A stretch of 64,000 bases of DNA from an uncultured beta proteobacterium (GCA_963793855.1 CAWCBL010000004.1:1088356-1152355), one strand, 5' to 3'; counted from the first letter of the stretch, positions 43,448 to 57,546 are shown. A program made the numbers and translations. The notes: generated from the letters alone by a model not told the origin.

Positions 43448-45070
43448 CTACAGGGTTAGCGGCGTCCAGCGATGGGGTAGCAGCTCTTCAATCAGATTAT
43501 TTTTGTGCGTTGGCAATCGTGTCAGAACGTCTTTCAAATAGGTGTACGGGTCATGGCCATTGAGCTTGGCGCTTTGGATCAGACTCATCACGGCCGCCGC
43601 CCGCTGGCCCGCGCGCAGTGAGCCCGCGAACAACCAGTTGCTCCGACCAATGGCAATCGACCGGATCTGGTTCTCAATCCAGTTGTTGTCGATGGGCAGG
43701 CGCCCGTCTTGCACAAACCTGGTCAGTGCAACCCAGCGTTTCAAGCTGTAGTCCAGCGCTTTGGCGGTGGCCGTCCCATCGGTAATACGTTGACGCTGCA
43801 ACAGCATCCACTGGTGCAAGGCATCAACCAGCAGCTTTGATTTGTCTTTGCGGATGCGGCCTCGTTCATCGGCGCTGAGATGTTTGACTTCCCGCTCCAC
43901 CTCATACAGCTGCCCGATGTAGATCAACGCCTGTTGGGCAATCTCGCTCTTGTTGCTGACAGAGAGGTCAAAGAACTTACGCCGGGCGTGCGCCATGCAG
44001 CCCACCTCGGTGATGGCCGCGCCGAAGCTGGCTTTGTAGCCACTGAAGTCGTCACAAACCAGACCACCGCTCCAGTCTCCCAGGAATGTTCTTGCATGCT
44101 CACCGGCGCGGGATTCGCAGAAGTCGTAGATTACGGCCTTTAAATCTTCAAAGGCCCCCGGAGCATAGGCCCAGAGGTAGGCCCGGTGGGTCTTCTTGTT
44201 GCCCGGCTTGAGCATGGCCACCGGGGTCTCATCTGCATGCAGCACGGCAGAGCGGAACATGGCCGTCTTCAGCGCATCGACCAGCGGCTGCAACTGCACG
44301 CCACACACGCCCACCCACTGCGCCAGGGTGGAGCGGGCGATGGCGTAGCCGGAACGCCCAAAGATGGTCTCCTGGCGGTACAGCGGCAAATGGTCAGAGT
44401 ACTTGGCCACCAGCACCTGTGCCAGCAAACCCGATGTGGGCAGGCCCTTGTCGATGATCTGGGCGGGTACCGGCGCTTGCCTCAAGGTCTGGCACTCGGA
44501 ACATACCCACTTGCCACGGACATGGCGTTGCACCGTGAGCACGCCCGGTGTGTAGTCCAGCTTCTCGCTGACGTCTTCGCCGATGCGCTTCAACTGGCAG
44601 CCGCAACTGCAGGTGGTGCTGTCGGGTTCGTGGTGCAACTCAACGCGGGGCAGCTCTGGTGGCAAGGCTGCGCGCTTGGGGCTCTGGCGGGGTTCTTTGG
44701 CTGCGTTGGCCGGTGGCGCCAGGTCCTGAAGCTCTTGCTCAATCGCGGCGATGTCGGCGTCGATGGTTTCATCCAGCAAACTGGCTTGGCCAGCGTCGAG
44801 CTGTTCGCGGCTGCGGCCAAACTTCCAGCGCTTGAGCACTGCCATCTCATGCGTGAGCTGGTCGATCTTGGCCTGGCGGTACAGGATCTCGCGGTCTTTG
44901 CTGGAGATGGTTTGGTCCAGGCTGGCGATTTGCTGGTCGAGTGCATTGATATGCAGATTGCGCGCACCGATCTCCTGATCGTTGCGAGCAACTTGTGCGA
45001 TCAAATCAGTGACGAGTTCGCGCAGTTGATCTGCGTTCAAGCCGGACAGTGATTCGGGGGCGACAACCAT
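43448..45070 (-). CDS. tnpC: IS66 transposase TnpC
   Basis: KYSDHLPLYRQ, LHADETP, CMAHARRKF, IDNNWIEN. Confidence 0.95.
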   Translation of the reverse strand: MVVAPESLSGLNADQLRELVTDLIAQVARNDQEIGARNLHINALDQQIASLDQTISSKDREILYRQAKIDQLTHEMAVLKRWKFGRSREQLDAGQASLLDETIDADIAAIEQELQDLAPPANAAKEPRQSPKRAALPPELPRVELHHEPDSTTCSCGCQLKRIGEDVSEKLDYTPGVLTVQRHVRGKWVCSECQTLRQAPVPAQIIDKGLPTSGLLAQVLVAKYSDHLPLYRQETIFGRSGYAIARSTLAQWVGVCGVQLQPLVDALKTAMFRSAVLHADETPVAMLKPGNKKTHRAYLWAYAPGAFEDLKAVIYDFCESRAGEHARTFLGDWSGGLVCDDFSGYKASFGAAITEVGCMAHARRKFFDLSVSNKSEIAQQALIYIGQLYEVEREVKHLSADERGRIRKDKSKLLVDALHQWMLLQRQRITDGTATAKALDYSLKRWVALTRFVQDGRLPIDNNWIENQIRSIAIGRSNWLFAGSLRAGQRAAAVMSLIQSAKLNGHDPYTYLKDVLTRLPTHKNNLIEELLPHRWTPLTL

Positions 45071-45152
45071 GAACGCAAAGTGTGCCCGTGCCTCCGAAAA
45101 TTGCCTATTGGCGCATCCCCCAATAGACGCAAACACACACCGCAATCCAGAA

Positions 45153-45506
45153 TCACACCACGCTGATAATGCCGCCCTCGCCGATGCGCGACCAGGGTAA
45201 GCCCAGTACCAAGGCATCCAATTGGGCGCGGCTCAGACTCACACGATTGACGCCACCGGGCGCACTTGCCGAACTTGTCTGGGGCCAAACGAAGTGGCCC
45301 CGGTGCAGCCGTCTGGCTGCCAGCCAAATGCCAATCCCGTCATGCACCAGCACCTTCATGCGGTTGGCGCGCCGGTTGGCAAAGAGGTAGGCTGTATGCG
45401 GGTGCGCGGCACCGAATACACCCACCACACGGGCTAGCGCCGTGTCCGTGCCAGCGCGCATGTCCAGGGGCACGGTGGACAGCCATACCGCGTCGATGCG
45501 AATCAC
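45153..45506 (-). CDS. tnpB: IS66 accessory protein TnpB
   Basis: DMRAG, FANRR, KVLVHDGIGIWLAARRL; GTG start overlaps tnpA stop. Confidence 0.92.
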   Translation of the reverse strand: MIRIDAVWLSTVPLDMRAGTDTALARVVGVFGAAHPHTAYLFANRRANRMKVLVHDGIGIWLAARRLHRGHFVWPQTSSASAPGGVNRVSLSRAQLDALVLGLPWSRIGEGGIISVV

Positions 45507-45883
45507 TGCAAGCACTCGCGCAGCCACTGGGCGCAGGCGGCGCCGCCGGCAAGTGGCCAGTGCACGACGATGGTGGCGTTGGCGCGTTTGACCTCAACGC
45601 GGATGTCAGCAGTGGGCTGCACGGTTGCCGGCTCTGTAGCCGAATTCAAGGTGACAGGCACAAAGGTCTGTGGCCGATTGACCAGTGTGCCCTGGCTGTG
45701 TTCTCGCAACCAGCGGTGCACGATGTTGGCATTGATGCCGTGCTGCATTGCCACCCCGGCAATGGACGCGCCGGGCTGGGCGCAGGCTCCGACAACTTGC
45801 AGTTTGAGTTCGGGACTGTAGAACCGTCGCTTGGGAACTTGGGGGGTGCGAGTCTCGCTCGCAATGGTGTGCATGATGTTCAT
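45503..45883 (-). CDS. tnpA: IS66 TnpA (HTH)
   Basis: RRFYSPELKLQVV, VAMQHGINANIVHRW, FVPV. Confidence 0.88.
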   Translation of the reverse strand: MNIMHTIASETRTPQVPKRRFYSPELKLQVVGACAQPGASIAGVAMQHGINANIVHRWLREHSQGTLVNRPQTFVPVTLNSATEPATVQPTADIRVEVKRANATIVVHWPLAGGAACAQWLRECLQ

Positions 45884-46162
45884 CGCGCACACTATCTCTG
45901 AATGTCAGCAAGCCTTCAATGTGTGTTCGCCGGACGCATACTTCGGAGTGTCTTCCAGGATCCCAGAGTCAAACTTGCCGAAGGTTAAGACTTCTTGGGG
46001 TCGGATCCATAGTTTTATTCGGCTGGATGCAGACCAGGCAGAAACTCAATTCCCGTTCGCCTGACCAACTCGCTGTAGCTGATTGGCCTTGAGGCCCGGG
46101 TACCGTGTCAGCGACTGGCCGGACGTCTACTGATTTGACTGGCGAACTCAGAATGCGACGGT

Positions 46163-49100
46163 TCAGCCACTCTGCGCAGGCATCAAGTGAGACAATCGGT
46201 CGGGCATGTGCACAAGGCCATCCTCGCCACGCGGAGCAAGCTCGTGTACTTGATACGGGATACCGGAACTCCGGCATTTGCGGCTCAAGAACTCCGCCTC
46301 CGAGCTGTCGTGAGTCGACAGGATGATTTGATAGCCAAGACCGTTCACCAGCTGGCGGAGCAGATCCATAAAGGCACTCGCGTGGATGACATCGTTGTGC
46401 TGCAGGGGGTCGTCCAATAAAAGCCCTTTCCAACGCGACCACCCAAACGTAGTGCTTGCTGCAAGCAGTGCGGCAACACTCAGCGCGGAAAGTTGCCCTT
46501 CACTGAAGTAATGGTTCGGGTTCATTTGCATTTGCGTTGTCGACCCGTCAGCCGCACGCTTGACAATGCCAGGCCGGAGTTCTGAGCGTGTCGCCGAGTG
46601 CTCGGCGTGATAGCTGATGGATTCATCGGACCACGTCATCAACGTGCGAGCAAAGCGCTTGATGGTGTTGTTCAGAGGTACAAGAACTTCATCGGCATAC
46701 GTCCCGGCGCGCTGCTGCATGCCGCTGCCCACAATCTCGACTCTCCCCCTCGCATTCTGAGCAATGTTGATGTCGTCCCGCGCCTCCATCGCTCGCTTCG
46801 CTAGAAGGTCGCCCACTTGCCGTTCAGACTCCACGCACTCCGCGTTTAGCTTGCTCGCGATCTCATCTTCAAGCTTGCGAAGCCGCTCGTCTCCAAGCCA
46901 TTTGCGGTATCCGGTGACCAAGAGCTGGAGCGCCCCTTCGATTGACCCTATGCGGGTGGAATGCTCAACCAAGCGTGCCCGATTCTCAACAAGGAATGAT
47001 CCGCTCGGCTCTCTCGACTGACCTGCCTGTACCCAAAGTCGAATATGTTCCAGCCGAGCTTTCGAACACCACTCCTGCCTTGAGGTGAGGGAGGCAAGTG
47101 CTTCTGCCTCGCGTGCCTCTACTTCCTGTAGGGAATTGCGAGTTGCACGCGCAGCTACGACATTTTCCTGCGCCATTTTTACTTGCTCGCTTGTCTCTTT
47201 GGAGTGCTTCTCTGCGGCCGCGCGTTCGTTCTCAAGGTCAACTAGGACTCCCTGCTCTGGCGTCCAAAGGTCAGGAGACTGGAGCAAATTTGATCGAGCC
47301 ATATGAATCGCCGCGAAAGCATCAGACAGCACCTGCTGCAGTGACGAGTGCTTTGCAGCTTCCGCCTTCAGTTCAGCTTCAGTAGCTTCGATCTGAACCT
47401 TGAGGTCGTCGGGTGCGGCTCCTTCGGTGAGCCTCCCGTCGAGCGTACTAAGCTCCTGTTCAAGCCTAGCAACGCCGGTCTCGTCGTATGTGGAATCAGC
47501 AACACCACCTTCCTCCACCAGCTGTTGGCGCAATTCGCCGCCTCGCGCACGATGCGCTGCAAGGATTGCTTCTAGCTGCTGAATTTCGGCTAGATTAGCG
47601 TCCTCTTGAGTAAGCTGCTGCTGCAAGCCTTCGGCCTTGAGCCGGGCTTCCGCAAGCGCCGTGGCCAACTGAGTGGCTGGTGTTGCGCTCGATACTGCTT
47701 GAGCCCGGGCGAGCTCAGCCAATCGACCAGGAAGAAACGGGGTGGTGCAAACCGGGCAGGAGGTGTCGTCGTGTCCAAGCCGGTGCGCGATCGCGGACAC
47801 TGCCTCTGTGATCGCCTGCACACGATCATCGTGCCGCCGAAGTTCCGACATATAAGCCGAGATTTGTTCGCGGACAGTTGCCGCATCGACCTCCAATTCA
47901 GCGTGCTTCGTGCGAGGGTCGTTAGCCGTTCTCACTCCCAGTAACTTAGTGACTCGATCAATCTCTGCCTTCAGTCTGGCGAGCTCGTCGGAGATTTTAG
48001 CTAATTTTCGTACCTGCACAAGACGGTCAGCGAGTGCGCGACGTTCGGCGCGTTGAGCAATGGCCGCGGCTAGTTGGCCCCGAAGCTGAGAGACCTGGAC
48101 TTCCATCGCTGCTGAAGCTACTGCCGTCGAACTTAGATTGGTTTCCGCTGATCTCTGTCGGGCCTGCGCGTCGGCCAACTGCTTAGAAGCGGCGAAAACT
48201 CGATCGATGGCGACCAAGCGATTTATCGCCTGACCGCCCTTCGCCTCGCTGGTCGCTAGCAAGTACGTTTCCTCGCTTAGTTTGGCATGGGCGACCTTCA
48301 GGTTGTCTAGCGCCCCTGCATGTCTCTGCTTGGTCGACTCGAGTTGGCTGGCAACCGCCATGGCATCGGAATTGCCGGCATCAAATGCTGCAACCAACTG
48401 AGCAAGCGAGTCGACCTGCCTCTGGTCCTTCTCAATTTGATCGTTGACAGCGCGCAGGATGGTCGCAAGCCGGTCAAGAATGGACTCGGGTTGCTCCTGT
48501 ACTTGGACCGGCGACCACATGAAGGCTGGAGATATTGAGAGGATCTGTTCCGCCAGAAGTCCTGCTGATGAGCGAAGCTCCAACGGTTGAACGGCGTTCT
48601 CAGACGAGGCGAGCTGCTTGGCACGGTCCCTTTCCCCGAGGAGGGCGTTCCAGGTCACCAACGCTTCCGAAGCGACCTCAAGCCGTTTCGTCCGTTCCTC
48701 AATCGCACGTGTGAAGGCGCGCCGGACACCCTGACCGCTCATGCGCTCGCGCAACGCGTTTATCCGGTCAACACCGGCTGGTCCTTTGAGCGCTTCCCAC
48801 TGCTCGTTCGGTTTCTTGAGGGAGAATCGCTGTGTCGAGGTCTGTCCAAACAAGTGGGTAAGCGAAAGATAGCCATGCAGATCGGCTATCTCAGCCCAAT
48901 CGCGCTGCTTGAGCAGCCTTGCGATCCCGGCTTCATCCGTCTGGAAGCCGGCGCCGCGGTCTATGGGTAGACCTTCAGAGAACTGAAGGCTCACTCGATG
49001 ACTATCTGTCGGAGCCCCAATTCTTGTGAGCGGGTCTTGCGCCTTGCGACGGCCGTCGACGTGAATGTCGCTGAATCGACCGACCTGTCCCGTCAGGGCC

Positions 49101-49252
49101 CACTCGACTCCGTCAAAAAAACTGGTCTTTCCGAAGCCATTTCCCCCAGTGATGAGCGTTACGCTTGGTTCCGTAGGAAACTCGTAGGCATAGCTGTCGC
49201 CATAAACGCGAAAGTTTGAGAACTCAACGCTGCGAAGGTATATGCCGCTCAT
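46163..49252 (-). CDS. lmuB: SMC/Rad50-like ABC ATPase, long Lamassu LmuB
   Basis: Walker A GGNGFGKTS, long coiled coils with central CPVC hook, signature FSEGQ, Walker B LLLDDP, STHD. Confidence 0.85.
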   Translation of the reverse strand: MSGIYLRSVEFSNFRVYGDSYAYEFPTEPSVTLITGGNGFGKTSFFDGVEWALTGQVGRFSDIHVDGRRKAQDPLTRIGAPTDSHRVSLQFSEGLPIDRGAGFQTDEAGIARLLKQRDWAEIADLHGYLSLTHLFGQTSTQRFSLKKPNEQWEALKGPAGVDRINALRERMSGQGVRRAFTRAIEERTKRLEVASEALVTWNALLGERDRAKQLASSENAVQPLELRSSAGLLAEQILSISPAFMWSPVQVQEQPESILDRLATILRAVNDQIEKDQRQVDSLAQLVAAFDAGNSDAMAVASQLESTKQRHAGALDNLKVAHAKLSEETYLLATSEAKGGQAINRLVAIDRVFAASKQLADAQARQRSAETNLSSTAVASAAMEVQVSQLRGQLAAAIAQRAERRALADRLVQVRKLAKISDELARLKAEIDRVTKLLGVRTANDPRTKHAELEVDAATVREQISAYMSELRRHDDRVQAITEAVSAIAHRLGHDDTSCPVCTTPFLPGRLAELARAQAVSSATPATQLATALAEARLKAEGLQQQLTQEDANLAEIQQLEAILAAHRARGGELRQQLVEEGGVADSTYDETGVARLEQELSTLDGRLTEGAAPDDLKVQIEATEAELKAEAAKHSSLQQVLSDAFAAIHMARSNLLQSPDLWTPEQGVLVDLENERAAAEKHSKETSEQVKMAQENVVAARATRNSLQEVEAREAEALASLTSRQEWCSKARLEHIRLWVQAGQSREPSGSFLVENRARLVEHSTRIGSIEGALQLLVTGYRKWLGDERLRKLEDEIASKLNAECVESERQVGDLLAKRAMEARDDINIAQNARGRVEIVGSGMQQRAGTYADEVLVPLNNTIKRFARTLMTWSDESISYHAEHSATRSELRPGIVKRAADGSTTQMQMNPNHYFSEGQLSALSVAALLAASTTFGWSRWKGLLLDDPLQHNDVIHASAFMDLLRQLVNGLGYQIILSTHDSSEAEFLSRKCRSSGIPYQVHELAPRGEDGLVHMPDRLSHLMPAQSG

Positions 49253-49902
49253 ACGACGTCCCCTTCCTCAAGCGCAATCAGTTGCTCGACGAGTCCGCTG
49301 AAGTCGAGCTCCTGATTTTGAAGAGCTTCTTCCCATCCGTTCGGAAGAGAGAAGTTCGCCATGGTATCCAGCGACTCCGTTCTTTGCTCGGACGGCCAGG
49401 GGCGAGCAACGAATGTCCGCTCCAGAAAATCACGAGCCTCATCTACGGAGGGTTGGGTACCGAAGAGCCAGACCTGCTTGCGACATACCCGGTCATCCGC
49501 CTCGATCTCCGCCGCAAACTGGCGCCAGGTTCCGTCCATAAGAGCTCCGGGCGGCCCCACCAAGAACAGGTGCAGGTTCGGAGCCTCCGAGCCAAGCCAA
49601 GACCGAGCAATCGTCGCCTGGTTCCGATATCGTCGTAGCTGCGAACCGACGATTGGAGCGCTTGGCGGACCGCCGAGAACGCCAATGAGAACAGGAAATC
49701 CATCAAGCGACGTCGCATAGACGTGCTCCGGAAGATCGCTTTCCCGCCGCCTCAGAGAGTCTCCCGAAATCGCATCGCTTAGGACTTCTGAGTTAAATCT
49801 AGTTCCTCGCAGGGACGGAGACACGTCGGCCACTGTTGCGCCGATGGCTCTAGCCGCATCAAGCAGCATGGCTGCCAAATCAGACCCATCTCCAATTATC
49901 AT
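49249..49902 (-). CDS. lmuC: ABC-three-component middle component, Lamassu LmuC
   Basis: 217 aa between effector and ATPase; EIEADDRVCRKQV; ATGA overlap with lmuB. Confidence 0.72.
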   Translation of the reverse strand: MIIGDGSDLAAMLLDAARAIGATVADVSPSLRGTRFNSEVLSDAISGDSLRRRESDLPEHVYATSLDGFPVLIGVLGGPPSAPIVGSQLRRYRNQATIARSWLGSEAPNLHLFLVGPPGALMDGTWRQFAAEIEADDRVCRKQVWLFGTQPSVDEARDFLERTFVARPWPSEQRTESLDTMANFSLPNGWEEALQNQELDFSGLVEQLIALEEGDVV

Positions 49903-49903
49903 C

Positions 49904-52321
49904 TTATGCCTCTTCTAGGAATTGTTGCGACGCAATGGCGCGGCGTTCGAAGATCGCATGGAAGAACCGCTGCATCGCAGTGGCTCCTGACTGAAGTGCA
50001 ACCAGGAAGTCGTCGTCAGCACCGATGACAATGGGCTTGTCCGCAAGAGATGCTAGGCCAACCCTTGCTGGATCCGTCGAGCTCTGATCAAGCCGGAGGT
50101 CACCCTCCAGCAGCTGCACTGCCTCCTGCAGCTGAGAAAGCAGGACAACGTCGGTGGTCCATGATTGCCATGCAGCGGTACGACCTCGAAGCTCGCGCTG
50201 GTTGATCCAGCCGACGCCGCAAGTGTGCCCGGTCACTACTTCAAAAGCCATGTTTCCCGGATGATGGCCGGCCGGCTCCATCGCCCGGCCAGAGCACGCC
50301 GAAAAAGCTAGCCCAAAAAGCGTTGGCTTCGTCAAATACGGTCGCATGACCTTCGGACCGAGTCGAACCAAAGCCCCGTCGCCCGCGTCGACTTGGTCGT
50401 CTACGCTTGCAAGCAGCCGAAGGAAGCGCCGTGTCATGGTCGGATCCGCGGTCAAGGGAGCATGCCACAGGACCCACACTTCCCAGAGCGTTTGTCGCAA
50501 GGTGGCTTCTATTGGCCAGCCGGTAGCTATCTCGGCAGGTCCGAGGATTCCAAAAATGGAGTCGTGCAGTCGCTGCAGAAGATGGGCATCGAGCCGCTCA
50601 TGGACCGTTGCGACGACCTCTTCTATCGGCAGCTCTAGAAGTACGGGAAGCATCGCGGGAGGCGACTGCCAGTCTTTGATATGGCAATGGCAGTTGAGGT
50701 CGGGGCCTGGGAGGAACCGGTCGGCGCACAGGGCGACCATGCCGGCCTGCCACGAGGCAGAATCGCGGGCATACAGCACGAAGTCTTGCGCGTGTGCGCC
50801 AAGACGCGCAATTGCTGGCAAGAGCCTGGAGGCGTTCGCCGCATTGATATCGCAGTAGACCGCAATCGAGGTCCCCCCCGCCCAAAGTTGGACGATATCG
50901 TCCGGGCCAACGTCGCCAGCCCAAACAATGCGGCCAGCAACTGACAGTGAGATTGAAACGGAGAGAGTTGGCTGAGCGTTAGCAGCCGGAAGAGCAGCGG
51001 CGACCACTGCTGCCGCGGGCTGTGCGGCGACTTTGAAGAGCTCAAACCTGGCGCGCGCGGTCGCGGTCAAGATCGGGGACTCGGGACGGCTTGGGACAGC
51101 AGCCGCACCCGGAAACCCCGCCAGCAGGCCTGTGAAGGGGGATAGGTTGGAAGCAGCGTCGGGGCCGAGGCGCAGGAACCTGCGGTATGGAAGGAAGGGC
51201 ACCTCGCCTATCAGGGTGACGTCACCCATCGATGGGGCTGGGCCGGCAAAGTTGACACCAACTTTTAGAGTGATTGCGTTGATGTCGATCTCCCTGTACG
51301 CCTCGATAACAAGGAACGTGGCAACGCGATTGTGAAGAGCAGTTGCCCTGCGGAGCAGCCTTGGTTCATTTGTGTGGAGCCATATCCGGACGTTTGGACG
51401 TAGACGGTCGCTGATCTCCGCCCACGTTGCGGACGGCACGCAATGCCGCACTCTCATTTGATACTCGTGTAGCAGATCCAAATCTGCGCCATCGGCCCAG
51501 GCTTCTTGTTCAATAGTTTCGAGTACCGCGCGGGCGGCACCGAGGTCCAAGCCAGCTAGCAGCTCGCAGATTTGGTTGTGGTCAAGCGCGTTGAAGGCAG
51601 CCATTTGAAAGTCGACCAGGCCACCATCTCCGTTTCCAGAAATGAAAATAATGGGATTCGCAATGGGCGAAAGGATCGGGCCTGCCAATCCAGATGGCGT
51701 CCAATATGGCGGCGTGTCGCCGTCCAGGCATCGTTCAAGGCCAAATCCGATTGCGAGAATCACCGCGTCGTAGATGCGGTTTATTGCTGCGCCGTCTCCA
51801 GCCACCACTCGAATGAGGCCGAGGGAATTGGGCAGAAGTTTTACGACTGGCTGCCCCAGATGCGACTTCAAGACTGAGCTGTGGATCGTGCGTTCAAACT
51901 CGTCACGCAGAGCGTCCGCTACGTCGCCAGCTGGCCCGGCTTGCCAGTTCATGATGGGTAGGCCAGCGTCGACCTCGTCAGAACCTACGGCAGGCCAGTC
52001 GTAGAAGTGTGGGTGGAGATATCGCCTACTGCCGTGTTGAAGTTCCAGCACTCTCGTTCTACTCTCGAATAGATCTAGCAGCGCCAACCCGGGGACTGCC
52101 TTTGCAAGAGCGACAGCTGCTGTCATGCCAGCCACACCGCCCCCCACGATCGCGATCTTGCCTTTGGGGCGAACCAAGCCTTCCGACAGAATTGCATCGA
52201 CGAGATTGAGCGCGCGGACTTGCTGCGAATAGACGGTCACCCTCTTTTCGAAGCTGCCAAGGATGAACACGCTTCGTGTGCTTGGAACAAGCGCTGCACT
52301 TACGATCTCGTGTGGCGTCAT
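49904..52321 (-). CDS. lmuA: Flavin-dependent oxidoreductase (FMO-like) effector with C-terminal adaptor domain, Lamassu LmuA
   Basis: IVGGGVAG FAD motif, LAIGFG, second SGNGDGG motif, HPHFYDWP; 1 bp from lmuC. Confidence 0.78.
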   Translation of the reverse strand: MTPHEIVSAALVPSTRSVFILGSFEKRVTVYSQQVRALNLVDAILSEGLVRPKGKIAIVGGGVAGMTAAVALAKAVPGLALLDLFESRTRVLELQHGSRRYLHPHFYDWPAVGSDEVDAGLPIMNWQAGPAGDVADALRDEFERTIHSSVLKSHLGQPVVKLLPNSLGLIRVVAGDGAAINRIYDAVILAIGFGLERCLDGDTPPYWTPSGLAGPILSPIANPIIFISGNGDGGLVDFQMAAFNALDHNQICELLAGLDLGAARAVLETIEQEAWADGADLDLLHEYQMRVRHCVPSATWAEISDRLRPNVRIWLHTNEPRLLRRATALHNRVATFLVIEAYREIDINAITLKVGVNFAGPAPSMGDVTLIGEVPFLPYRRFLRLGPDAASNLSPFTGLLAGFPGAAAVPSRPESPILTATARARFELFKVAAQPAAAVVAAALPAANAQPTLSVSISLSVAGRIVWAGDVGPDDIVQLWAGGTSIAVYCDINAANASRLLPAIARLGAHAQDFVLYARDSASWQAGMVALCADRFLPGPDLNCHCHIKDWQSPPAMLPVLLELPIEEVVATVHERLDAHLLQRLHDSIFGILGPAEIATGWPIEATLRQTLWEVWVLWHAPLTADPTMTRRFLRLLASVDDQVDAGDGALVRLGPKVMRPYLTKPTLFGLAFSACSGRAMEPAGHHPGNMAFEVVTGHTCGVGWINQRELRGRTAAWQSWTTDVVLLSQLQEAVQLLEGDLRLDQSSTDPARVGLASLADKPIVIGADDDFLVALQSGATAMQRFFHAIFERRAIASQQFLEEA

Positions 52322-52418: not shown

Positions 52419-53021
52419 TCACTCAGGAAAAAAGTCTCGTATGTCAGCAAATCCTCGCAAACGAGAACTCATCACTATGTCGTCATAGGCTTGCCGTGCC
52501 CCTCCCATCTGGACAAGGCTCATCTCGCCTTTGCATGAGCGCTCAGGGTGACACCAATATGCACTGGTGTCGAATGAGTAGTGAGCGCGGCAAGCGTACG
52601 GACGTGTTTCGTAGACAGAACACACATCATCCACAAGAAAAGGACATGGAACCCCCGAAAACTCTCCTTCTGAATGACGAACTGGGCGTTTGACCACAGC
52701 CATAGGTTTTCGGGTTACCGTTGAGAGGCGTTCAGCCTCAATGATTGAAATGCTGACATTCATCTTGCAGCAGTCTGAGCAGCCCTTACCGCAAGCAATG
52801 TAGGGTTGCACTGCTTGACTGACTTCTGCCATCAAGGAGTATATTTTTCCAAGCTTGGACTTGGCAGATGAATTATCGCGCCGGAGCTGCCCCACAATCA
52901 CGTCATCTCGGGTATCCAGGGTCTTCGGCATAGCTGATAAGAACTCGGTTAACCTTAATCGTGAACGTGCCTTTGCTTCTACAAAGTCTGGCGAATTTTC
53001 GGGAACGGAGAGGTTTTTCAT
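52419..53021 (-). CDS. YkgJ/UPF0153 family Cys-cluster (Fe-S or Zn) protein
   Basis: CGKGCSDCC, CPFL, CSVYETRPYACR. Confidence 0.85.
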   Translation of the reverse strand: MKNLSVPENSPDFVEAKARSRLRLTEFLSAMPKTLDTRDDVIVGQLRRDNSSAKSKLGKIYSLMAEVSQAVQPYIACGKGCSDCCKMNVSISIIEAERLSTVTRKPMAVVKRPVRHSEGEFSGVPCPFLVDDVCSVYETRPYACRAHYSFDTSAYWCHPERSCKGEMSLVQMGGARQAYDDIVMSSRLRGFADIRDFFPE

Positions 53022-53024
53022 GGC

Positions 53025-54905
53025 TTAACGATCGAGGATGCGACTCAGCGGCCCATTGATGTTTGCGAAAGCTCCAATGACTCCGTCCATCACAAAGTCA
53101 ATTGCGCGCCCGTATCCTTGTTGGAGGCTCGCAGTGTCAAAGCCAAGGTCCTGAAGGCGCGGCAGAGCATTTGCGAAGGTGTCGTGGGCGTCGGCAATAC
53201 GTAGGTCGTTAGCCACGAACAAAGAGGCCAATTTTTCGTTACTCACTTTCCAGCCCTCCGGTTCATTTGCATTGATGAATGCATTCATATCCTCATCATG
53301 AGCATCCAGCCGCTCCGCGATGTTGAGAAGGGCCTGGAGCAGTTTCATGGTTCCCCGGTCACCGACCTCTCTCTTAGGGCAACCTGCGGCCTCGAGAATG
53401 CGTTTCAGGAATCCGTTCGGGACTTTCTGCCAGATTTCATGAAGACTCTTACACCGAGCGAGGAAGTCCTGCTCTGACATAGACAAGGGTGCTACCTGAG
53501 CCAGACGGCTCAATTGTGGATAGTGAAGCCACCCGTTTGCCTTGATGTCGCCGGCAGAAAAACCGACAAGATCCTCGGAAGACTTGTTCTGTCCAAACAT
53601 AGCTCCGAGTTGGGAGAGGTTTTCGCCCAACGTCAGAAGCTCATCTAGGAGCCGTTTTGTCTTTGATGCGATGTTTTCTTCGTTTGGATCAAACTGAGCT
53701 GCTACGGCAGGATCTAGTGCAAACGACTGTGCATGGAGTATTTCTTGCTCGGGCTTGGGTTTATAAAGCTCTCGAAGTGAAACGCGAATTAGATTTCGCC
53801 CAACGCGCCTACAGTCCGTGAAGCTCCATTGACCACGATATGACGGGCTGCAATGCCACTGTCCATGGGAAAACATGGGTGTTGTGTCATAGAAACCACT
53901 CTTCTCGTAGCGCTCAAGGAATCGGTCGTCCAGATGAAGGATCTGGACGGACCCAATCGAGTCCGCGCTTGCGTGAGTTACCAAGCCTTGAACACCGGGC
54001 CAGGCGATGTTGTTAGCCGATCGCTCGGGACAGAGCTCACATGAAACGGCGTCAACGGAAGCCCAGACCTGCAGGAGAAGGCCTCCATCATTCTCTCGGA
54101 TATCAATCTCATACCAGCCTGGGTCTGGCTTGATGTCAACATGCTGTGTGCCTTTCATGAGTTGTCGAAGTCCAGGATCATCAGGCAGTTGTGCCTGATA
54201 AAAAAAAGTTCTAACACCTCTTGCGCCGCGCAACCACAAATATTTTCGCAAGTGGGCGTTAGACATCCGCCACGTGACGTTGCGAGAAGAGTCGAAGTGA
54301 TACTCGCGCGACACCTCGCCTTCGGCTATTGCGAACTCTGGAATTCCTAGATCATCGTAAACAAGGCATTGCTTTTCATTGCCAAGGCACCTGGGCGTGA
54401 GACCGAGGGCCATCCACACCTTCTCGGCGAGGTTGTAGGTGTAATGAGAACCATCACCCCACGAGGCAACGATGTAGTCATAGCCGGACATGCTGGGGGA
54501 GAAATCTTCGGATGAACCTTTGTCGCCTAGCACGGGCTCTGAGAACGACACAACCCCGTCCCCGGCTTCATCAAATATCGGCACTGGACTATTAATCGAT
54601 TCGGGCACGACGGCAAGGAGCATGTGAACAAACTCGGCGTTAGGCCCGTGGTGGTCGAACACAAGGTCGCTGGTGACTTCAACTTGCTCCAAGGGATCAA
54701 GCCCTACTGGACTGAGTAGGGCGCGAAGACGCACCGACAGCGCAGTTCCTTGGATTGGAAAAGAGGCAAGATAGTCTATGCTGGGCATAAGGTGTCTCGG
54801 CTGATAAGGCGTGGTTGCAGACGTTTCAACAGAGAGTCCGGCGTCCGCAATGAGTGCCGTTACGGACCGTCGGACTTTTCTCCTCACCGCTTTAAGTTCC
54901 CACAT
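53025..54905 (-). CDS. Hypothetical ~590-630 aa protein with C-terminal HEPN-like RxxxxH motif
   Basis: Long ORF; NDLRIADAH in a helical C-terminal region; start may be 54788 (MPSID); stop 3 bp before the YkgJ start. Confidence 0.7.
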   Translation of the reverse strand: MWELKAVRRKVRRSVTALIADAGLSVETSATTPYQPRHLMPSIDYLASFPIQGTALSVRLRALLSPVGLDPLEQVEVTSDLVFDHHGPNAEFVHMLLAVVPESINSPVPIFDEAGDGVVSFSEPVLGDKGSSEDFSPSMSGYDYIVASWGDGSHYTYNLAEKVWMALGLTPRCLGNEKQCLVYDDLGIPEFAIAEGEVSREYHFDSSRNVTWRMSNAHLRKYLWLRGARGVRTFFYQAQLPDDPGLRQLMKGTQHVDIKPDPGWYEIDIRENDGGLLLQVWASVDAVSCELCPERSANNIAWPGVQGLVTHASADSIGSVQILHLDDRFLERYEKSGFYDTTPMFSHGQWHCSPSYRGQWSFTDCRRVGRNLIRVSLRELYKPKPEQEILHAQSFALDPAVAAQFDPNEENIASKTKRLLDELLTLGENLSQLGAMFGQNKSSEDLVGFSAGDIKANGWLHYPQLSRLAQVAPLSMSEQDFLARCKSLHEIWQKVPNGFLKRILEAAGCPKREVGDRGTMKLLQALLNIAERLDAHDEDMNAFINANEPEGWKVSNEKLASLFVANDLRIADAHDTFANALPRLQDLGFDTASLQQGYGRAIDFVMDGVIGAFANINGPLSRILDR

Positions 54906-54949: not shown

Positions 54950-56569
54950 CTACTTCTTATCGCGCCAATCTTTATTGTAAAGAAGATCGTTCTGACTCAA
55001 CTTTAAGACAGTGAATTTCTTAAGGAGCTCTTCCGCTTGAGATCCGAATTTTTTTGCCTCGTCAAAAGACAAGAAAATCTGCTTTGATTTGATAGCAGCC
55101 AAAATTCTGAGGATTCTCTTTATGGCGGCAACCTCTATGTTCTTGTAGATAACAGAATCGTGTATAACAAACGGCAATCTGGTTAGAGAGAGCATGGCCA
55201 TATCAAATCCGATCAAACCAGCATATGACTTCCCAGTCCCCGTATCCTCAGGGGAGGTAAAGCTATAGGAATTAGCACTTTTTACTCGTAATTCCGAACT
55301 ATTTCTGCTGGGGCCGTAGACAACCTTGTTGAACGCCTTCAACTTCAAATTGATTTTCGCCTCAATCTCAAGGAAGATCTTTGTATAAATTGAATCCAAT
55401 CGTTGGCCAGATATCTTTATCACCTCTTCTAGCTGCACCTTTTGCTTAAAATATCTGTTTTCTTCAGTCGCTTTATCCGTAATTTCTTTCAAGTCAAATA
55501 CTCGCTTGAATAAATCATCAGGCATACCCTTTGATTTCAACGTTGTTTGAATTTGTTGCTCTAACGATATAATCTCGCTCGTAAGAATGGATTCTTCCAA
55601 TTGAATTGCAGCAAGCTCATTTTTGAGTTCCTTCTTGACGATACTTCCAATTTTTTGATGGAACGCATCTACTTGCTCAAGTCTCTCCACGTCAACAGTT
55701 GGAAAGAATTCAGCCACCAGAGCTATGTTGGCGGCAAGCCGCGGTGTTATGCCAGAAACCTCTCGCTGCAATCTTTTTACTTTGCTCTGAAGTTCACTTC
55801 TTAAGTTTGCAAGCTCGTTCTTCCGCTGCTGCATACGCTGCAAGCTTTCGTCAAACAAAGCCTCGTAAGCATTAAGTGCTCCACTGAATCCGTGCTTGAG
55901 TTGTTCAATCTGCACAGTATTTTCAGTAATAGTCTTAGTGTTCACTTCGTACTGAGTCTTGTTTATATTTGGAATAATTTTCGCGTTCATTGAACCAGTT
56001 ATTAGCTTTTTTCGATCTTTCTGCTCGTCAATCACCTTCTTCTCTGCAGCGATATCTGCACTCCGGCTAAAGAGGTCTATTAAACGGCTAATTGCTGATC
56101 CTGAAGGTTCTTTGAGCGCCGAAATAAAAGGCTGATCCGGCTCCAGACCTCCTTTCCTCCAAATGCGAGCAAAGGGACCAACAATTGAACGAAACGAACC
56201 TTCTAGACTTTCTAGTCCATAAAGCTCCTTCAACCTCCTGCGGTAATACTCCACGGGCAACTCGTTCAGCTTGGTATATTCCTTATCACAGACATACACC
56301 ACATCTGAAGCATCAGTTGAACGAGAGAAGAAATACGGCTGCCCCGCAAATACAAATGAAAAATTATAGCGATGGTGGCCAAGCGCTCTTATGGCTCCAG
56401 CCTCATCTTTAAGGAAGCTGTCACCTCCTTGTGCGAAGTCTATAACCATCAATGCCGTAGACTTACCAATAGAATTCTTGGCATCATCATCGCCCAATAT
56501 GATGTTGAGACCTTGATGAAAGGAAATTCTTGCGTTATTGAACAAAGGGCACTGGATCTCTTTAAGCAT
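54950..56569 (-). CDS. lmuB: Short ABC ATPase (DUF2326-like), short Lamassu LmuB
   Basis: Walker A variant NSIGKST, short coiled coil, DTGTGKS, FVIHDS Walker B; ATG 56569 overlaps upstream stop. Confidence 0.8.
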   Translation of the reverse strand: MLKEIQCPLFNNARISFHQGLNIILGDDDAKNSIGKSTALMVIDFAQGGDSFLKDEAGAIRALGHHRYNFSFVFAGQPYFFSRSTDASDVVYVCDKEYTKLNELPVEYYRRRLKELYGLESLEGSFRSIVGPFARIWRKGGLEPDQPFISALKEPSGSAISRLIDLFSRSADIAAEKKVIDEQKDRKKLITGSMNAKIIPNINKTQYEVNTKTITENTVQIEQLKHGFSGALNAYEALFDESLQRMQQRKNELANLRSELQSKVKRLQREVSGITPRLAANIALVAEFFPTVDVERLEQVDAFHQKIGSIVKKELKNELAAIQLEESILTSEIISLEQQIQTTLKSKGMPDDLFKRVFDLKEITDKATEENRYFKQKVQLEEVIKISGQRLDSIYTKIFLEIEAKINLKLKAFNKVVYGPSRNSSELRVKSANSYSFTSPEDTGTGKSYAGLIGFDMAMLSLTRLPFVIHDSVIYKNIEVAAIKRILRILAAIKSKQIFLSFDEAKKFGSQAEELLKKFTVLKLSQNDLLYNKDWRDKK

Positions 56570-56783
56570 ACTCAATCAACCCCGAATCATCTTTAATATT
56601 TACCAACCCCATAACGTACAAGACATCAATCGCATGGAGAAATTCGCTGGCATCGAAGAAGGAATCTTTAGTTCTATGATATACATCAAGAACACTTTCA
56701 TTTTCTTTTTTATTAGCGAGAATAAATCTCATCTTGAAGATAGTGGATTCCTCAAGCCTTGTAAACTTACTCGGAACCAACAT
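56562..56783 (-). CDS. lmuC: Small middle component, short Lamassu LmuC
   Basis: 73 aa MLVPSKF...AIDVLYVMGLV, overlapping both neighbours. Confidence 0.75.
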   Translation of the reverse strand: MLVPSKFTRLEESTIFKMRFILANKKENESVLDVYHRTKDSFFDASEFLHAIDVLYVMGLVNIKDDSGLIEYA

Positions 56784-57546
56784 CAAATACCTCGCAATTC
56801 TGAACAAAAAATGAAGTCAATACCTTTGCAGCTAAGATTGGCTTATTAGTTTTTGCACTGATCCACTGCGCAACATAATTGAATACCAGATCCTTATTAT
56901 CTGGATTCTGCTTGTTTACAGCAAGATAATACGAGTTAATTTGATTCTGAAGAATTCTGACCGAGACTTGGTCTTGCTGCTCCAGCTTCCGAATATGATC
57001 CCGTATCCGAACATAGAAACTAATAGCATTAACTTTTATTTCTCGCTTCTGAAGTGGACTCATCCCTGTTTTGAGCTTTATATCCACCGTTGAAATATCA
57101 AATTTCGCGGGCGATAGCGGAATGTCATCAAAATCAGACGTAGCGATTGCATCCAATATTTCATAGACTTCCTCTTGAATGGTATGCTGCGACGCAGTGA
57201 GTTTTGCTTGCACCGCACTTAAATATCCTTCCTTAATTTTTCTTATTTTTACAAGTTCATCAAACTTAAAATCTTTATCGTATTTGGTATGACAGGTTGG
57301 GCACAGAGCAACGACGTTCGCAAGAGCATTGATATCAGGAGGAACGGGATATCCGATAAGCGCGTTAACTTGTGCGGGCGTAGGGTTCAAAGGATAGATA
57401 TGGGCTACCTCATAGCCCTTGCTAGGTTTCTTTGAATCTTTCTTTTGAAAAATAATTGGCAGCGTACATAAAGGACAAAATCCTTCAGTTTCCGCATAGA
57501 GAATACTGTGCTCATCGTCACTATATTTTTTCCTCTTCTCTGTCAT
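56767..57546 (-). CDS. lmuA: HNH endonuclease effector with C-terminal adaptor domain, short Lamassu LmuA
   Basis: CPLC...EVAHIYP...NVVALCPTCHTKYD; C-terminus VLTSFFVQNCEVF. Confidence 0.8.
   Translation of the reverse strand: MTEKRKKYSDDEHSILYAETEGFCPLCTLPIIFQKKDSKKPSKGYEVAHIYPLNPTPAQVNALIGYPVPPDINALANVVALCPTCHTKYDKDFKFDELVKIRKIKEGYLSAVQAKLTASQHTIQEEVYEILDAIATSDFDDIPLSPAKFDISTVDIKLKTGMSPLQKREIKVNAISFYVRIRDHIRKLEQQDQVSVRILQNQINSYYLAVNKQNPDNKDLVFNYVAQWISAKTNKPILAAKVLTSFFVQNCEVFDVGSE

What the first reader, a model, noticed from the sequence alone, without database searches (positions are those of the whole stretch)
46163..52321. Long Lamassu/ABC-three-component system with a flavin-monooxygenase effector
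A Rad50-like ATPase with zinc hook, a middle component and an 805-aa effector with two dinucleotide-binding motifs are tightly coupled. An FMO variant of Lamassu is a recognised subtype (recalled), but how a flavoenzyme stops phage, and on what substrate, is to my knowledge unresolved.
Basis: partly seen in the sequence, partly recalled or inferred. Interest (0 to 1): 0.62.

Follow-up and report, generated by a model that had tools for sequence, protein, structure and literature searches.

The report
Long Lamassu operon with flavoenzyme-like effector
This is an intact three-gene "long Lamassu" anti-phage system whose killing module looks like a flavin/NAD(P)H enzyme instead of a nuclease; the type is already catalogued, but how such an enzyme stops an infection is still unknown.

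Summary
Three co-directional minus-strand genes lie at 46163-52321. They are lmuA (805 aa), lmuC (217 aa) and lmuB (1029 aa), separated by a 1-nt gap and a 4-nt ATGA overlap. Each matches a PADLOC Lamassu model end to end (E 1e-214, 4e-59, 6e-267).

LmuB has Walker A, SEGQ, the long-type Walker B LLLDD and a single central CPVC hook. LmuA is a 433-aa two-Rossmann domain (GGGVAG, GNGDGG), a disordered linker and the ABC-3C CTD2 docking domain. This is the catalogued "Lamassu-FMO" subtype. This scan has already reported that subtype on other DNA. No paper I could search shows activity for any member.

- **"FMO" is only a label.** 0/52 relatives hit Pfam FMO-like, and 0/150 carry the FMO or BVMO fingerprint. 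Fold neighbours are thioredoxin-reductase-like flavoproteins as much as FMOs (10-16% identity). There is no conserved cysteine.
- **The domain is a large portable N-terminal module.** It forms about 1,900 clusters, and most are outside Lamassu. It is fused to STAND/NLR-like NTPases, including an Avs7 homologue.

Best guess at the mechanism, which is inferred: DNA-end sensing by LmuB/LmuC releases LmuA, which then burns NAD(P)H and makes reactive oxygen species. The system is accessory and sits in a defence island.

The parts
49904..52321 (-). lmuA: 805-aa effector subunit (flavoenzyme-like N-domain, linker, CTD2 docking domain)
   Evidence: PADLOC LmuA PDLC03858 E 1.4e-214, residues 1-803 on profile 2-822/827. 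AF2 model pLDDT 86.1. Identical gene call on an independent contig.
51023..52321 (-). LmuA residues 1-433: two-Rossmann (tDBDF-like) putative FAD/NAD(P)H domain, with a family-specific N-terminal strand-helix (YSQQVRALNL) and a roughly 60-aa helical insert in the second Rossmann domain (residues 248-305)
   Evidence: AF2 pLDDT 91.2, pTM 0.91. Foldseek PDB E 1e-8 to 5e-6 to TrxR-type FNR, YpdA, AhpF, TrxR, FMO, BVMO and NDH-2. Invariant residues across 39 N-domains of all architectures.
52127..52144 (-). First dinucleotide-binding motif, G60-G-G-V-A-G65 (putative FAD site). The acidic E86 at the end of beta2 is conserved in at least 90% of sequences.
   Evidence: Present in 148/150 cluster representatives.
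51992..52015 (-). Family signature H103-P-H-F-Y-D-W-P110 (consensus RxLHPHIYDWP). R100, P104, Y107, W109 and P110 are invariant.
   Evidence: Y.WP present in 140/150 representatives. No PDB sequence match to this segment alone.
51620..51637 (-). Second dinucleotide-binding motif, G229-N-G-D-G-G234 within the invariant S-G-x-G-D (putative NAD(P)H site)
   Evidence: SG.GD present in 146/150 representatives.
50975..51022 (-). Ala/Pro-rich disordered linker (residues 434-449) between the effector and docking domains
   Evidence: pLDDT below 50 for 434-449. Sequence shown.
49907..50974 (-). LmuA C-terminal docking domain (ABC-3C CTD2), including the low-confidence acidic loop 737-747 with invariant R743 and D745
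   Evidence: Pfam PF20278 CTD2 E 4.3e-99, residues 462-787. Invariant columns. pLDDT. The loop fits the 'conserved negatively charged loop predicted to bind LmuB' described for long LmuA CTDs in PMC12663957.
49249..49902 (-). lmuC: 217-aa middle component
   Evidence: PADLOC LmuC PDLC03876 E 4.1e-59. Pfam MComp1 PF20289 E 3.5e-10.
46163..49252 (-). lmuB: 1029-aa Rad50/SMC-like ABC ATPase with long coiled coil
   Evidence: PADLOC LmuB PDLC03868 E 5.9e-267, residues 1-1018 on profile 1-1017/1035. Pfam AAA_23/SMC_N. NCBIfam Rad50 E 9e-10.
49124..49147 (-). LmuB Walker A, GGNGFGKT (residues 36-43)
47747..47758 (-). LmuB zinc hook CPVC (residues 499-502), the only CxxC in the protein, at the coiled-coil midpoint
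   Evidence: A single CxxC is the rule for long LmuB (PMC12663957).
46409..46423 (-). LmuB Walker B, LLLDD (residues 944-948), the long-Lamassu hhhhDD form. The signature SEGQ lies at 46493-46504 and the H-loop STHD at 46307-46318.
   Evidence: The hhhhDD consensus for long Lamassu comes from PMC12663957.

Best explanation
This is a horizontally acquired, intact long Lamassu (ABC-3C) defence operon in the order lmuA-lmuC-lmuB.

Shown by sequence:
- LmuB is a Rad50/SbcC-like ATPase with one zinc hook.
- LmuC is the MComp1 middle component.
- LmuA carries the CTD2 docking domain. A flexible linker tethers it to a 433-aa two-Rossmann domain of the two-dinucleotide-binding flavoprotein superfamily.

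Inferred by analogy with the solved Vibrio cholerae Lamassu: an LmuB dimer with LmuC holds monomeric LmuA inactive. Binding of foreign DNA ends or replication intermediates, together with ATP, frees LmuA. LmuA then self-associates and switches on.

Inferred mechanism of killing, my best guess at about 35%: the activated domain binds FAD and oxidises NAD(P)H without a protective redox cysteine. Electrons pass to O2. The reduced pyridine-nucleotide pool is drained and H2O2 or superoxide is produced. The infected cell stops or dies before phage is released (abortive infection). This would be the redox counterpart of the NAD+-depleting Sir2 effectors found in the same Lamassu family.

My confidence is about 0.95 for the identity of the system, about 0.6 for the activation logic and about 0.35 for the NAD(P)H-oxidase/ROS chemistry.
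For: Identity:
- Full-length PADLOC LmuA/LmuC/LmuB matches, Pfam CTD2 and MComp1, and the ATPase motifs and single hook.
- The A-C-B gene order is kept in 37 of 78 related loci across three identity tiers.
- None of the window's neighbouring genes travels with it in those loci.

Flavoenzyme fold:
- AF2 N-domain pLDDT 91.2.
- Foldseek probability 1.00 to TrxR-type FNRs, YpdA, AhpF, TrxR, FMO, BVMO, PvdA and NDH-2.
- Both GxGxxG motifs, E86 and an R-x-G-P(D) strand-helix motif are conserved.

No disulfide chemistry: there is no conserved Cys in the domain, and CxxC occurs in only 3/150 relatives.

Effector (killing) role:
- The domain occupies the effector position of LmuA, and the operon has no other enzyme.
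- The same domain is N-terminal in 140/150 cluster representatives.
- It is fused to NB-ARC/NACHT/nSTAND1 NTPases with TPR or WD40 sensors and to a full Avs7 homologue (PDB 9N00, E 1.5e-259).

Activation model: cryo-EM and biochemistry of Lamassu Vc-Cap4 (PMC12663957).

Precedent for a flavoenzyme that kills through H2O2: the pepper executor Bs3 (abstract of PMC8375990).

Mobility:
- Not found in 36 congeneric and 24 same-order genomes.
- GC is 57-61% against 52% and 39-46% in the flanks.
- The domain is present on 29 plasmids, 22 of them conjugative.
Against: - No cofactor, activity or phage protection has been measured for any member.
- The structural matches are at superfamily level only (TM 0.3-0.5, 10-16% identity), so the acceptor or substrate cannot be read from them.
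- The long list of invariant aromatic and polar residues (Q33, Q34, R36, R100, Y107, W109, W126, Y206, W207, N331, R384) points to a specific ligand pocket. A mere leaky oxidase would not need so many.
- The canonical GD motif is altered (RxGP), and its Asp is not conserved outside the Lamassu subgroup.
- The activation model comes from a short Lamassu with a nuclease effector. Long-Lamassu complexes are known only as predictions.
- In the Avs7 fusion (L016) the domain sits upstream of Avs7's own nuclease-like domain, so there it could be an accessory part and not the killing part.
Confidence: 0.5

Rival explanations
1. The system is the same Lamassu, but the effector is a true substrate-specific oxygenase or oxidoreductase (the literal 'FMO' reading). 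Once released, it would oxygenate or oxidise one essential small molecule or nucleic-acid component, such as a nucleobase, nucleotide, polyamine, thiol or quinone. This would poison replication or metabolism. It would not simply burn NAD(P)H.
For: - Many invariant aromatic and polar residues lie outside the cofactor motifs (RxLHPHIYDWP, LPxLxW, SYW, YSQQVRALNL, LNR). This is typical of a defined substrate pocket.
- Class B monooxygenases (FMO 8acs, BVMOs 4ap1/4d03, PvdA 3s5w) are among the fold neighbours.
- H103-x-x-x-Y107-D-W-P is faintly reminiscent of the HxxxY / HxxxW[PD] part of the FMO/BVMO fingerprints. This is my own reading of the sequence.
Against: - 0/52 members hit Pfam FMO-like.
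- 0/150 carry FxGxxxHxxx[YF] or the BVMO fingerprint.
- The HxxxY segment lies about 120 residues before the second GxGxxG, not just upstream of it as in class B enzymes.
- FMO/BVMO hits are no better than TrxR-like reductases.
- No candidate substrate can be named from the data.
Confidence: 0.25
2. The system is the same Lamassu, but the effector is an NAD(P)H:acceptor reductase and not an oxidase. Like its closest fold neighbours (TrxR-type ferredoxin/flavodoxin reductases, NDH-2, FSP1/AIF-type enzymes), it would pass electrons to ferredoxin, flavodoxin, quinone, free flavin or iron. Damage would come indirectly, for example through Fenton chemistry or collapse of redox balance.
For: - The top Foldseek hits are cysteine-free TrxR-type FNRs (3ab1, 6gas, 8c16, 3lzw) and ferredoxin reductases (BphA4, putidaredoxin reductase). 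NDH-2 and AIF also appear.
- There is no conserved Cys.
Against: - Identity is only 10-16% and TM no better than 0.5.
- There is no membrane-binding or partner-docking element, and no ferredoxin/flavodoxin-type partner gene in the 37 conserved three-gene loci.
- A housekeeping-type reductase activity is not obviously lethal.
Confidence: 0.12
3. The two-Rossmann domain is not catalytic. It could be a dinucleotide-binding regulatory or sensor module that reads the NAD(H) state. Alternatively, like apoptosis-inducing factor, it could act through protein or DNA binding. Killing would then be done by something else.
For: - In L016 the domain precedes a complete Avs7 that keeps its own nuclease-like N-domain, so it is not always the only effector.
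- AIF (3gd3) is among the fold hits.
- The GD motif is non-canonical.
Against: - In the Lamassu operon there is no other enzymatic domain.
- Both GxGxxG motifs and about 25 further residues are invariant over roughly 30%-identity distances and all architectures. That is the pattern of an enzyme.
- In LmuA and in STAND proteins the N-terminal position is the effector position.
Confidence: 0.08
4. This is not an immune system at all. It is a housekeeping SbcCD/Rad50-like DNA-repair module with an associated redox enzyme.
For: LmuB is related to Rad50/SbcC, and Lamassu is thought to derive from SbcCD (PMC12663957).
Against: - CTD2 and MComp1 are ABC-3C-specific domains.
- The system was not found in 60 related genomes.
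- It lies in a block with a second Lamassu-like HNH system, an nSTAND3 NTPase and IS66.
- Homologues are plasmid-borne.
- There is no Mre11/SbcD nuclease gene.
Confidence: 0.03

Closest known systems
Long Lamassu, 'FMO' effector subtype (DefenseFinder/PADLOC Lamassu family; Haudiquet et al. PNAS 2025, PMC12663957; 'double-Rossmann dehydrogenase' effector of ABC-3C systems as listed in PMC10586767)
   Same: - Same three proteins, same order and same domain models.
- Long LmuB with a single CxxC and hhhhDD Walker B.
- Long LmuC and CTD2-type LmuA.
- Closest relatives are 84% (Paraburkholderia fungorum) and 78% (Massilia psychrophila) identical.
   Different: Nothing essential differs. LmuB (1029 aa) is longer than the roughly 800-aa average quoted for long LmuB. 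No member of the subtype has been tested experimentally, so 'known' here means catalogued, not understood.
Vibrio cholerae Lamassu Vc-Cap4 / DdmABC (short Lamassu, solved by cryo-EM)
   Same: LmuA/LmuB/LmuC logic. An SMC-like sensor sequesters a monomeric effector, which is released and oligomerises on sensing DNA ends.
   Different: The V. cholerae system is of the short type. It has no zinc hook, a different LmuA C-terminal domain and LmuC family, and a Cap4 nuclease effector. Here the system is of the long type with a hook and a redox-enzyme-like effector. Transfer of the activation mechanism is therefore an inference.
Low-molecular-weight thioredoxin-reductase-like flavoproteins: TrxR-type ferredoxin-NADP+ reductases (3ab1, 6gas, 3lzw), YpdA/Bdr (7a76), AhpF, TrxR
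   Same: Best Foldseek matches (E 1e-8 to 1e-6, TM to target up to 0.53). Two Rossmann domains in the same order. The second motif, GxGD(G/S)(G/A), resembles the TrxR GGGDSA type, which I recall from memory.
   Different: - Identity is only 10-16%, and only the first Rossmann motif matches at the sequence level.
- There is no redox-active CxxC or single catalytic Cys.
- It has an extra N-terminal strand-helix with invariant QQxR.
- It has a roughly 60-aa helical insert in the second domain.
- Its signature segment has no PDB match.
Class B flavin-containing and Baeyer-Villiger monooxygenases (Pfam FMO-like PF00743; 8acs, 4ap1, 4d03)
   Same: Two GxGxxG motifs and the same superfamily fold. They appear among the Foldseek hits at E of about 1e-7 to 1e-6.
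   Different: No PF00743 hit in 52 members. The FMO and BVMO fingerprints are absent in 150/150 representatives.
Avs7 and other antiviral STAND (NLR-like) proteins with swappable N-terminal effectors (Nature 2026, PMC13581612)
   Same: The same flavoenzyme-like domain (64% identical to the window's) is fused to a full SeAvs7 homologue in L016. It is also fused to NB-ARC/NACHT/nSTAND1-TPR/WD40 proteins elsewhere.
   Different: These are single-chain sensors of phage proteins, not SMC-like DNA sensors. The paper's main text does not mention a flavin, FAD or FMO effector.
Flavoenzymes that execute cell death in eukaryotes: pepper Bs3 (FMO-like executor of the hypersensitive response) and apoptosis-inducing factor
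   Same: A flavin/NAD(P)H enzyme acts as the terminal death effector of an immune pathway. Bs3 makes H2O2 in vitro and is toxic in yeast (abstract of PMC8375990). AIF is a fold neighbour.
   Different: This is an analogy only. No specific sequence relationship was shown here.

Membership tests
Long Lamassu / ABC-3C system | SMC/Rad50-like ABC ATPase (LmuB) with Walker A, signature, Walker B hhhhDD, long coiled coil and a single CxxC hook | tested here: met
   GGNGFGKT 36-43, SEGQ 917-920, LLLDD 944-948, STHD 979-982 and one CPVC at 499-502 of 1029 aa. PADLOC LmuB E 5.9e-267.
Long Lamassu / ABC-3C system | Middle component LmuC encoded between the effector and ATPase genes | tested here: met
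   Pfam MComp1 E 3.5e-10. PADLOC LmuC E 4.1e-59. Translationally coupled on both sides.
Long Lamassu / ABC-3C system | LmuA made of an N-terminal effector domain plus an ABC-3C C-terminal docking domain | tested here: met
   Pfam CTD2 E 4.3e-99 at residues 462-787. PADLOC LmuA E 1.4e-214. Disordered linker at 434-449.
Long Lamassu / ABC-3C system | Conserved three-gene synteny as a mobile, accessory unit | tested here: met
   A-C-B order in 37 of 78 related loci. Neighbours are not co-conserved. Not found in 60 related genomes. Plasmid-borne relatives exist.
Long Lamassu / ABC-3C system | Protection against phage or plasmids that depends on the ATPase and the effector | not testable with these tools
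   No experiment was possible. According to PMC12663957 no FMO-type system has been validated.
Class B flavin-containing monooxygenases (FMO/BVMO/NMO) | Two dinucleotide-binding GxGxxG/A motifs (FAD and NADPH) | tested here: met
   G60xGxxG65 and G229xGxxG234, both invariant.
Class B flavin-containing monooxygenases (FMO/BVMO/NMO) | FMO-identifying motif FxGxxxHxxx[YF], or the BVMO fingerprint FxGxxxHxxxW[PD] | tested here: not met
   Absent in the window protein and in 150/150 cluster representatives of the domain.
Class B flavin-containing monooxygenases (FMO/BVMO/NMO) | Match to the family profile (Pfam PF00743 FMO-like) | tested here: not met
   0 of 52 full-length relatives at E<=0.01. 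Hits are generic (NAD_binding_8, DAO, Pyr_redox_2, NAD_binding_9; Pyr_redox_3 in 7).
Class B flavin-containing monooxygenases (FMO/BVMO/NMO) | FAD bound, NADPH-dependent formation of C4a-(hydro)peroxyflavin and substrate oxygenation | not testable with these tools
   This needs purified protein.
Two-dinucleotide-binding-domain flavoprotein (tDBDF) superfamily | Two consecutive Rossmann-type domains with the fold of glutathione-reductase/TrxR-like enzymes | tested here: met
   AF2 pLDDT 91.2. 257 PDB chains at E<=1e-3; those listed (the best 50) are all two-dinucleotide flavoproteins.
Thioredoxin/disulfide reductases (TrxR, AhpF, YpdA) | Redox-active cysteine(s) next to the flavin | tested here: not met
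   The three Cys of the N-domain (198, 252, 294) are not conserved. CxxC occurs in 3/150 relatives.

The most novel reading that the evidence does not exclude
The so-called FMO domain of LmuA may be the founding member of a large, uncharacterised family of redox 'death enzymes'. The family has about 1,900 clusters at 50% identity. Its own signature motifs are YSQQVRALNL, RxLHPHIYDWP, SYW and SGxGDG.

Bacteria appear to plug this domain as an interchangeable N-terminal effector into unrelated immune sensors. These include Lamassu SMC-like DNA sensors, Avs7 and other STAND/NLR-like protein sensors, and other scaffolds.

If the domain kills by an NAD(P)H-driven oxidative burst or by oxidising one specific metabolite, it would be the first redox-based effector chemistry in prokaryotic immunity. 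It would also parallel plant Bs3 and animal AIF.
Probability: 0.3. Interest if true: 0.75.

Novelty: new member of a known kind. Interest (0 to 1): 0.4.

Why it matters
Known bacterial abortive-infection effectors cut nucleic acids, break membranes, cleave proteins or destroy NAD+ or nucleotides. A flavin/NAD(P)H enzyme does not fit any of these.

The same domain is reused by at least two unrelated sensor classes, Lamassu and STAND/Avs. This argues that it is a general-purpose killing module whose chemistry is still unknown.

This locus is a complete, uninterrupted example. It is 84% identical to one in a cultured Paraburkholderia. It could be cloned into a laboratory strain to ask three questions: which cofactor it binds, whether killing needs oxygen, and what is oxidised.

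As a genome feature it is ordinary: one more copy of a catalogued defence subtype in a defence island.

Tried and rejected
- **Sequence searches of PDB.** Searches with the full-length profile and the N-domain profile matched only the first Rossmann beta-alpha-beta motif.
- **Signature segment alone.** A profile of residues 87-135 (RxLHPHIYDWP...LPxLxW) found nothing in PDB. From memory I had noted a resemblance to the TrxR 'ENWPG' and FNR 'IYDVxGFP' loops. That could not be confirmed, and I do not rely on it.
- **Foldseek against viral structures (BFVD).** This gave only two Lactococcus-phage TrxR-like proteins at fold level. There was no phage-encoded homologue or obvious mimic.
- **Promoter and terminator scan of 45.2-53.2 kb.** The number of sites was no higher than in shuffled sequence, so it was uninformative. 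An AGGTGA Shine-Dalgarno-like site lies 8 nt upstream of the lmuA ATG.
- **Upstream gene pair.** I asked whether the 626-aa and CxxCxxCC genes, or any other neighbour, belong to the system. None has a homologue in the 78 related loci, so they do not.
- **Origin of Lamassu-linked domains.** On a quick FastTree of 151 N-domains the Lamassu label needs 13 changes, and at least 5 of them for the CTD2 group are forced by supported branches. Repeated swapping is therefore likely. However, truncated metagenome proteins were scored as 'other', which inflates the count. No bootstrap or AU test was run.
- **Unavailable sources.** The original ABC-3C paper (Krishnan et al. 2020) is not held, and neither are the supplements of the Avs7 paper. 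I cannot say whether the STAND or Avs7 fusions are already listed there.
- **Residue geometry.** I could not check which invariant residues line the predicted flavin or nicotinamide site.
Full report
**What is there**

Three minus-strand ORFs fill 46163-52321. They are 49904-52321 (805 aa), 49249-49902 (217 aa) and 46163-49252 (1029 aa). One nucleotide separates the first stop codon from the second start codon. The second and third genes overlap by 4 nt. An AGGTGA Shine-Dalgarno-like site lies 8 nt before the first ATG. An independent metagenome contig encodes the identical 805-aa protein, with the same three gene calls and the same upstream genes.

**Family assignment**

PADLOC models match each protein almost end to end:
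- LmuA, PDLC03858, E 1.4e-214
- LmuC, PDLC03876, E 4.1e-59
- LmuB, PDLC03868, E 5.9e-267

Pfam finds CTD2 of ABC-3C systems in LmuA residues 462-787 (E 4.3e-99). It finds MComp1 in the 217-aa protein, and AAA_23/SMC_N at the LmuB N-terminus. NCBIfam gives weak Rad50, RecF and SMC hits for LmuB.

LmuB carries the following motifs:
- Walker A GGNGFGKT (36-43)
- SEGQ (917-920)
- Walker B LLLDD (944-948)
- STHD (979-982)
- one CxxC only (CPVC, 499-502), at the midpoint of the protein

Haudiquet et al. 2025 describe long Lamassu in just these terms: an hhhhDD Walker B, a single zinc hook, and longer LmuC and LmuA C-terminal domains. They name FMO as an effector type found only in long Lamassu. They also say that every validated system is of the short type, except a Bacillus cereus hydrolase-protease system. 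Three literature searches found no biochemistry of the flavoenzyme effector. An earlier review lists a 'double-Rossmann dehydrogenase domain' among the LmuA effectors. The kind is already catalogued. This scan had already reported the same subtype in other genomes, with the same verdict.

**The effector domain**

An AlphaFold2 model of full-length LmuA has pLDDT 86.1. Two segments are disordered. One is the Ala/Pro-rich linker 434-449. The other is the loop 737-747, which holds the invariant R743 and D745. That loop fits the acidic LmuB-binding loop predicted for long LmuA C-terminal domains.

The N-domain alone (residues 1-433) models at pLDDT 91.2 and pTM 0.91. Its layout is:
- an N-terminal strand and long helix (residues 18-46);
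- a first Rossmann beta-alpha-beta with G60-G-G-V-A-G65, ending in E86;
- a beta-meander;
- a second Rossmann unit with G229-N-G-D-G-G234;
- four inserted helices (248-305) before its second strand (312-317);
- a final strand-helix at 380-396 carrying R384-x-G386-P-D388.

Foldseek against PDB returns only two-dinucleotide-binding flavoproteins:
- thioredoxin-reductase-type ferredoxin-NADP+ reductases (3ab1, E 1.3e-8)
- bacillithiol disulfide reductase YpdA (7a76, TM to target 0.52)
- AhpF, TrxR and DiatB
- an FMO (8acs, E 7e-8) and Baeyer-Villiger monooxygenases
- PvdA, NDH-2 and, with the full-length model, AIF

All of these are 10-16% identical, with TM 0.3-0.5. This places the domain in a superfamily. 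It does not assign it to a family.

**Is it an FMO?**

Tested directly, it is not:
- None of 52 full-length relatives hits Pfam FMO-like. They hit the generic NAD_binding_8, DAO, Pyr_redox_2 and NAD_binding_9 models.
- The FMO fingerprint FxGxxxHxxx[YF] is absent from the window protein. Both it and the BVMO fingerprint are absent from all 150 cluster representatives examined.
- No cysteine is conserved. A disulfide-reductase mechanism is therefore also excluded.

The family has its own invariant signature across all architectures. It is kept in 140-150 of the 150 representatives, apart from the LNR-type motif, which is in 126:
- G22, T29, Q33, Q34, R36, L40 (YSQQVRALNL)
- the two glycine motifs
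- R100, P104, Y107, W109, P110 (RxLHPHIYDWP)
- P122, W126
- G192, G194 (GFG)
- Y206, W207
- S228 and D232
- N331
- R384, G386

The signature segment alone finds nothing in PDB.

**A portable module**

A scan of one genome per species found 78 loci. In 37 of them LmuA is followed by LmuC and LmuB homologues in the same order. These fall into three identity tiers (42-78%, about 30%, about 27%). In about 40 loci only the N-domain is conserved.

The N-domain-only proteins include several architectures:
- flavoenzyme-like domain plus NB-ARC/NACHT plus TPR (L033, L048, L054);
- an NB-ARC-WD40 Apaf-1-like protein with the domain at its C-terminus (L037 / P0203);
- a receiver-domain fusion (L035);
- a protein with a TIR-like region (L068);
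- many proteins whose C-termini match no family.

In L016 (Burkholderiaceae) a domain 64% identical to the window's heads a 1953-aa ORF. The remaining 1,500 residues match apo SeAvs7 (PDB 9N00) at E 1.5e-259, including the Avs7 nuclease-like N-terminus. Avs7 senses phage major capsid protein and is reported to carry at least 20 different N-terminal effectors. The main text of that paper does not mention a flavin-type effector.

An exhaustive profile search found 1,882 clusters (50% identity) at E<=1e-30 and 3,000 at E<=1e-10, with lengths of 385-1959 aa. Further counts:
- The domain is N-terminal in 140 of the top 150.
- Only 25 of the 150 have a Lamassu-type C-terminus.
- 15 of the 150 resemble the STAND-TPR fusions, and 23 more have a P-loop shortly after the domain.
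- In a systematic sample of 48, CTD2 occurs in 5, TPR in 6, and NB-ARC, NACHT or nSTAND1 in up to 8.

On a quick tree of the N-domains, Lamassu-linked and other architectures interleave. This is provisional, because truncated proteins blur the labels. Another agent of this scan reported the same domain beside Druantia-type genes. I did not test that.

**Context**

The operon has 57-61% GC. The upstream DNA has 52% GC. A second ABC-3C system nearby has 39-46% GC and consists of HNH plus CTD11, an MC7 middle component and a DUF2326 ATPase. An IS66 element lies just downstream, and an nSTAND3 NTPase further on. None of these neighbours accompanies LmuA-type loci elsewhere.

The protein was not found in 36 congeneric or 24 same-order genomes. 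Relatives sit on 29 plasmids, 22 of them conjugative, mostly in Rhizobiaceae. This is an accessory, horizontally moving unit in a defence island.

**How it probably works**

Sequence and predicted structure show three things: the parts list, an intact ATPase, an intact docking domain, and a highly constrained two-Rossmann domain at the effector position.

By analogy with the solved V. cholerae complex, I infer the following. LmuB2-LmuC sequesters monomeric LmuA. DNA ends or phage replication intermediates release LmuA, and oligomerisation switches it on.

My preferred chemistry, at about 35%, is an FAD-dependent NAD(P)H oxidase with no protecting cysteine. It would drain reduced pyridine nucleotides and make H2O2 or superoxide. 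This would be the redox analogue of the Sir2 NAD+ depletion used by other Lamassu systems. It also echoes the pepper FMO-like executor Bs3, which makes H2O2 and kills yeast.

The many invariant aromatic and polar residues keep a substrate-specific oxygenase or oxidoreductase open (about 25%). The top fold hits keep an electron-shunting reductase open (about 12%). A non-catalytic role is unlikely (about 8%), and a housekeeping repair role very unlikely (about 3%).

**Verdict**

The system is a new member of a known but untested subtype. The instance itself is ordinary. The open biochemical question is interesting, as is the breadth of the effector family outside Lamassu.

Noticed in passing
window 54950-57546 (-): A second, AT-rich (39-46% GC) ABC-3C / short-Lamassu-like system. 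It has an HNH_2 + CTD11 effector (259 aa), a roughly 73-aa MC7/MC6 middle component and a DUF2326 ATPase (about 540 aa). The two large proteins match PADLOC candidate system PDC-M68A/B, not the named Lamassu models.
   Followed up: partly
window 52419-54905 (-): A gene pair with no PADLOC hit lies between the two Lamassu systems: 626 aa with no Pfam match, and about 170-200 aa with a CxxCxxCC domain. It travels with both systems on an independent metagenome contig (L080). It has no homologue next to LmuA-type genes in 78 other loci.
   Followed up: partly
window 39261-43073 (-): A 1270-aa protein with a borderline nSTAND3 NTPase hit (E 3.9e-6, residues 252-356) and no PADLOC match. It is probably an unclassified NLR-like defence protein in the same island.
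   Followed up: no
window 43448-45900 (-): An IS66-family element directly downstream of lmuB. It has a 589-aa DDE transposase plus two small upstream ORFs typical of IS66. lmuB itself is intact.
   Followed up: no
window 37648-38526 (-): A DEDDh (RNase T-type) exonuclease fused to BRCT matches PADLOC candidate PDC-S48 (E 2e-29). A 172-aa ORF with no family lies just upstream.
   Followed up: no
L016 8001-13862 (Burkholderiaceae bacterium UC74_6, CP170561.1): A single 1953-aa ORF. It joins a flavoenzyme-like domain, 64% identical to the window's LmuA N-domain, to a complete Avs7 homologue (PDB 9N00, E 1.5e-259) that keeps its own nuclease-like N-domain. This may be a two-effector Avs7 variant. 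I did not find it described in the paper's main text.
   Followed up: partly
P0124 (983 aa, metagenome protein): The protein contains two tandem copies of the flavoenzyme-like domain (two matched stretches, the best at 455-886).
   Followed up: no
L037 4428-9359 / P0203 (Blastocatellia MAG): A 1643-aa gene call with NB-ARC, an APAF1 helical domain, a WD40 propeller and the flavoenzyme-like domain at the C-terminus (1191-1639). This is the reverse of its usual N-terminal position.
   Followed up: no
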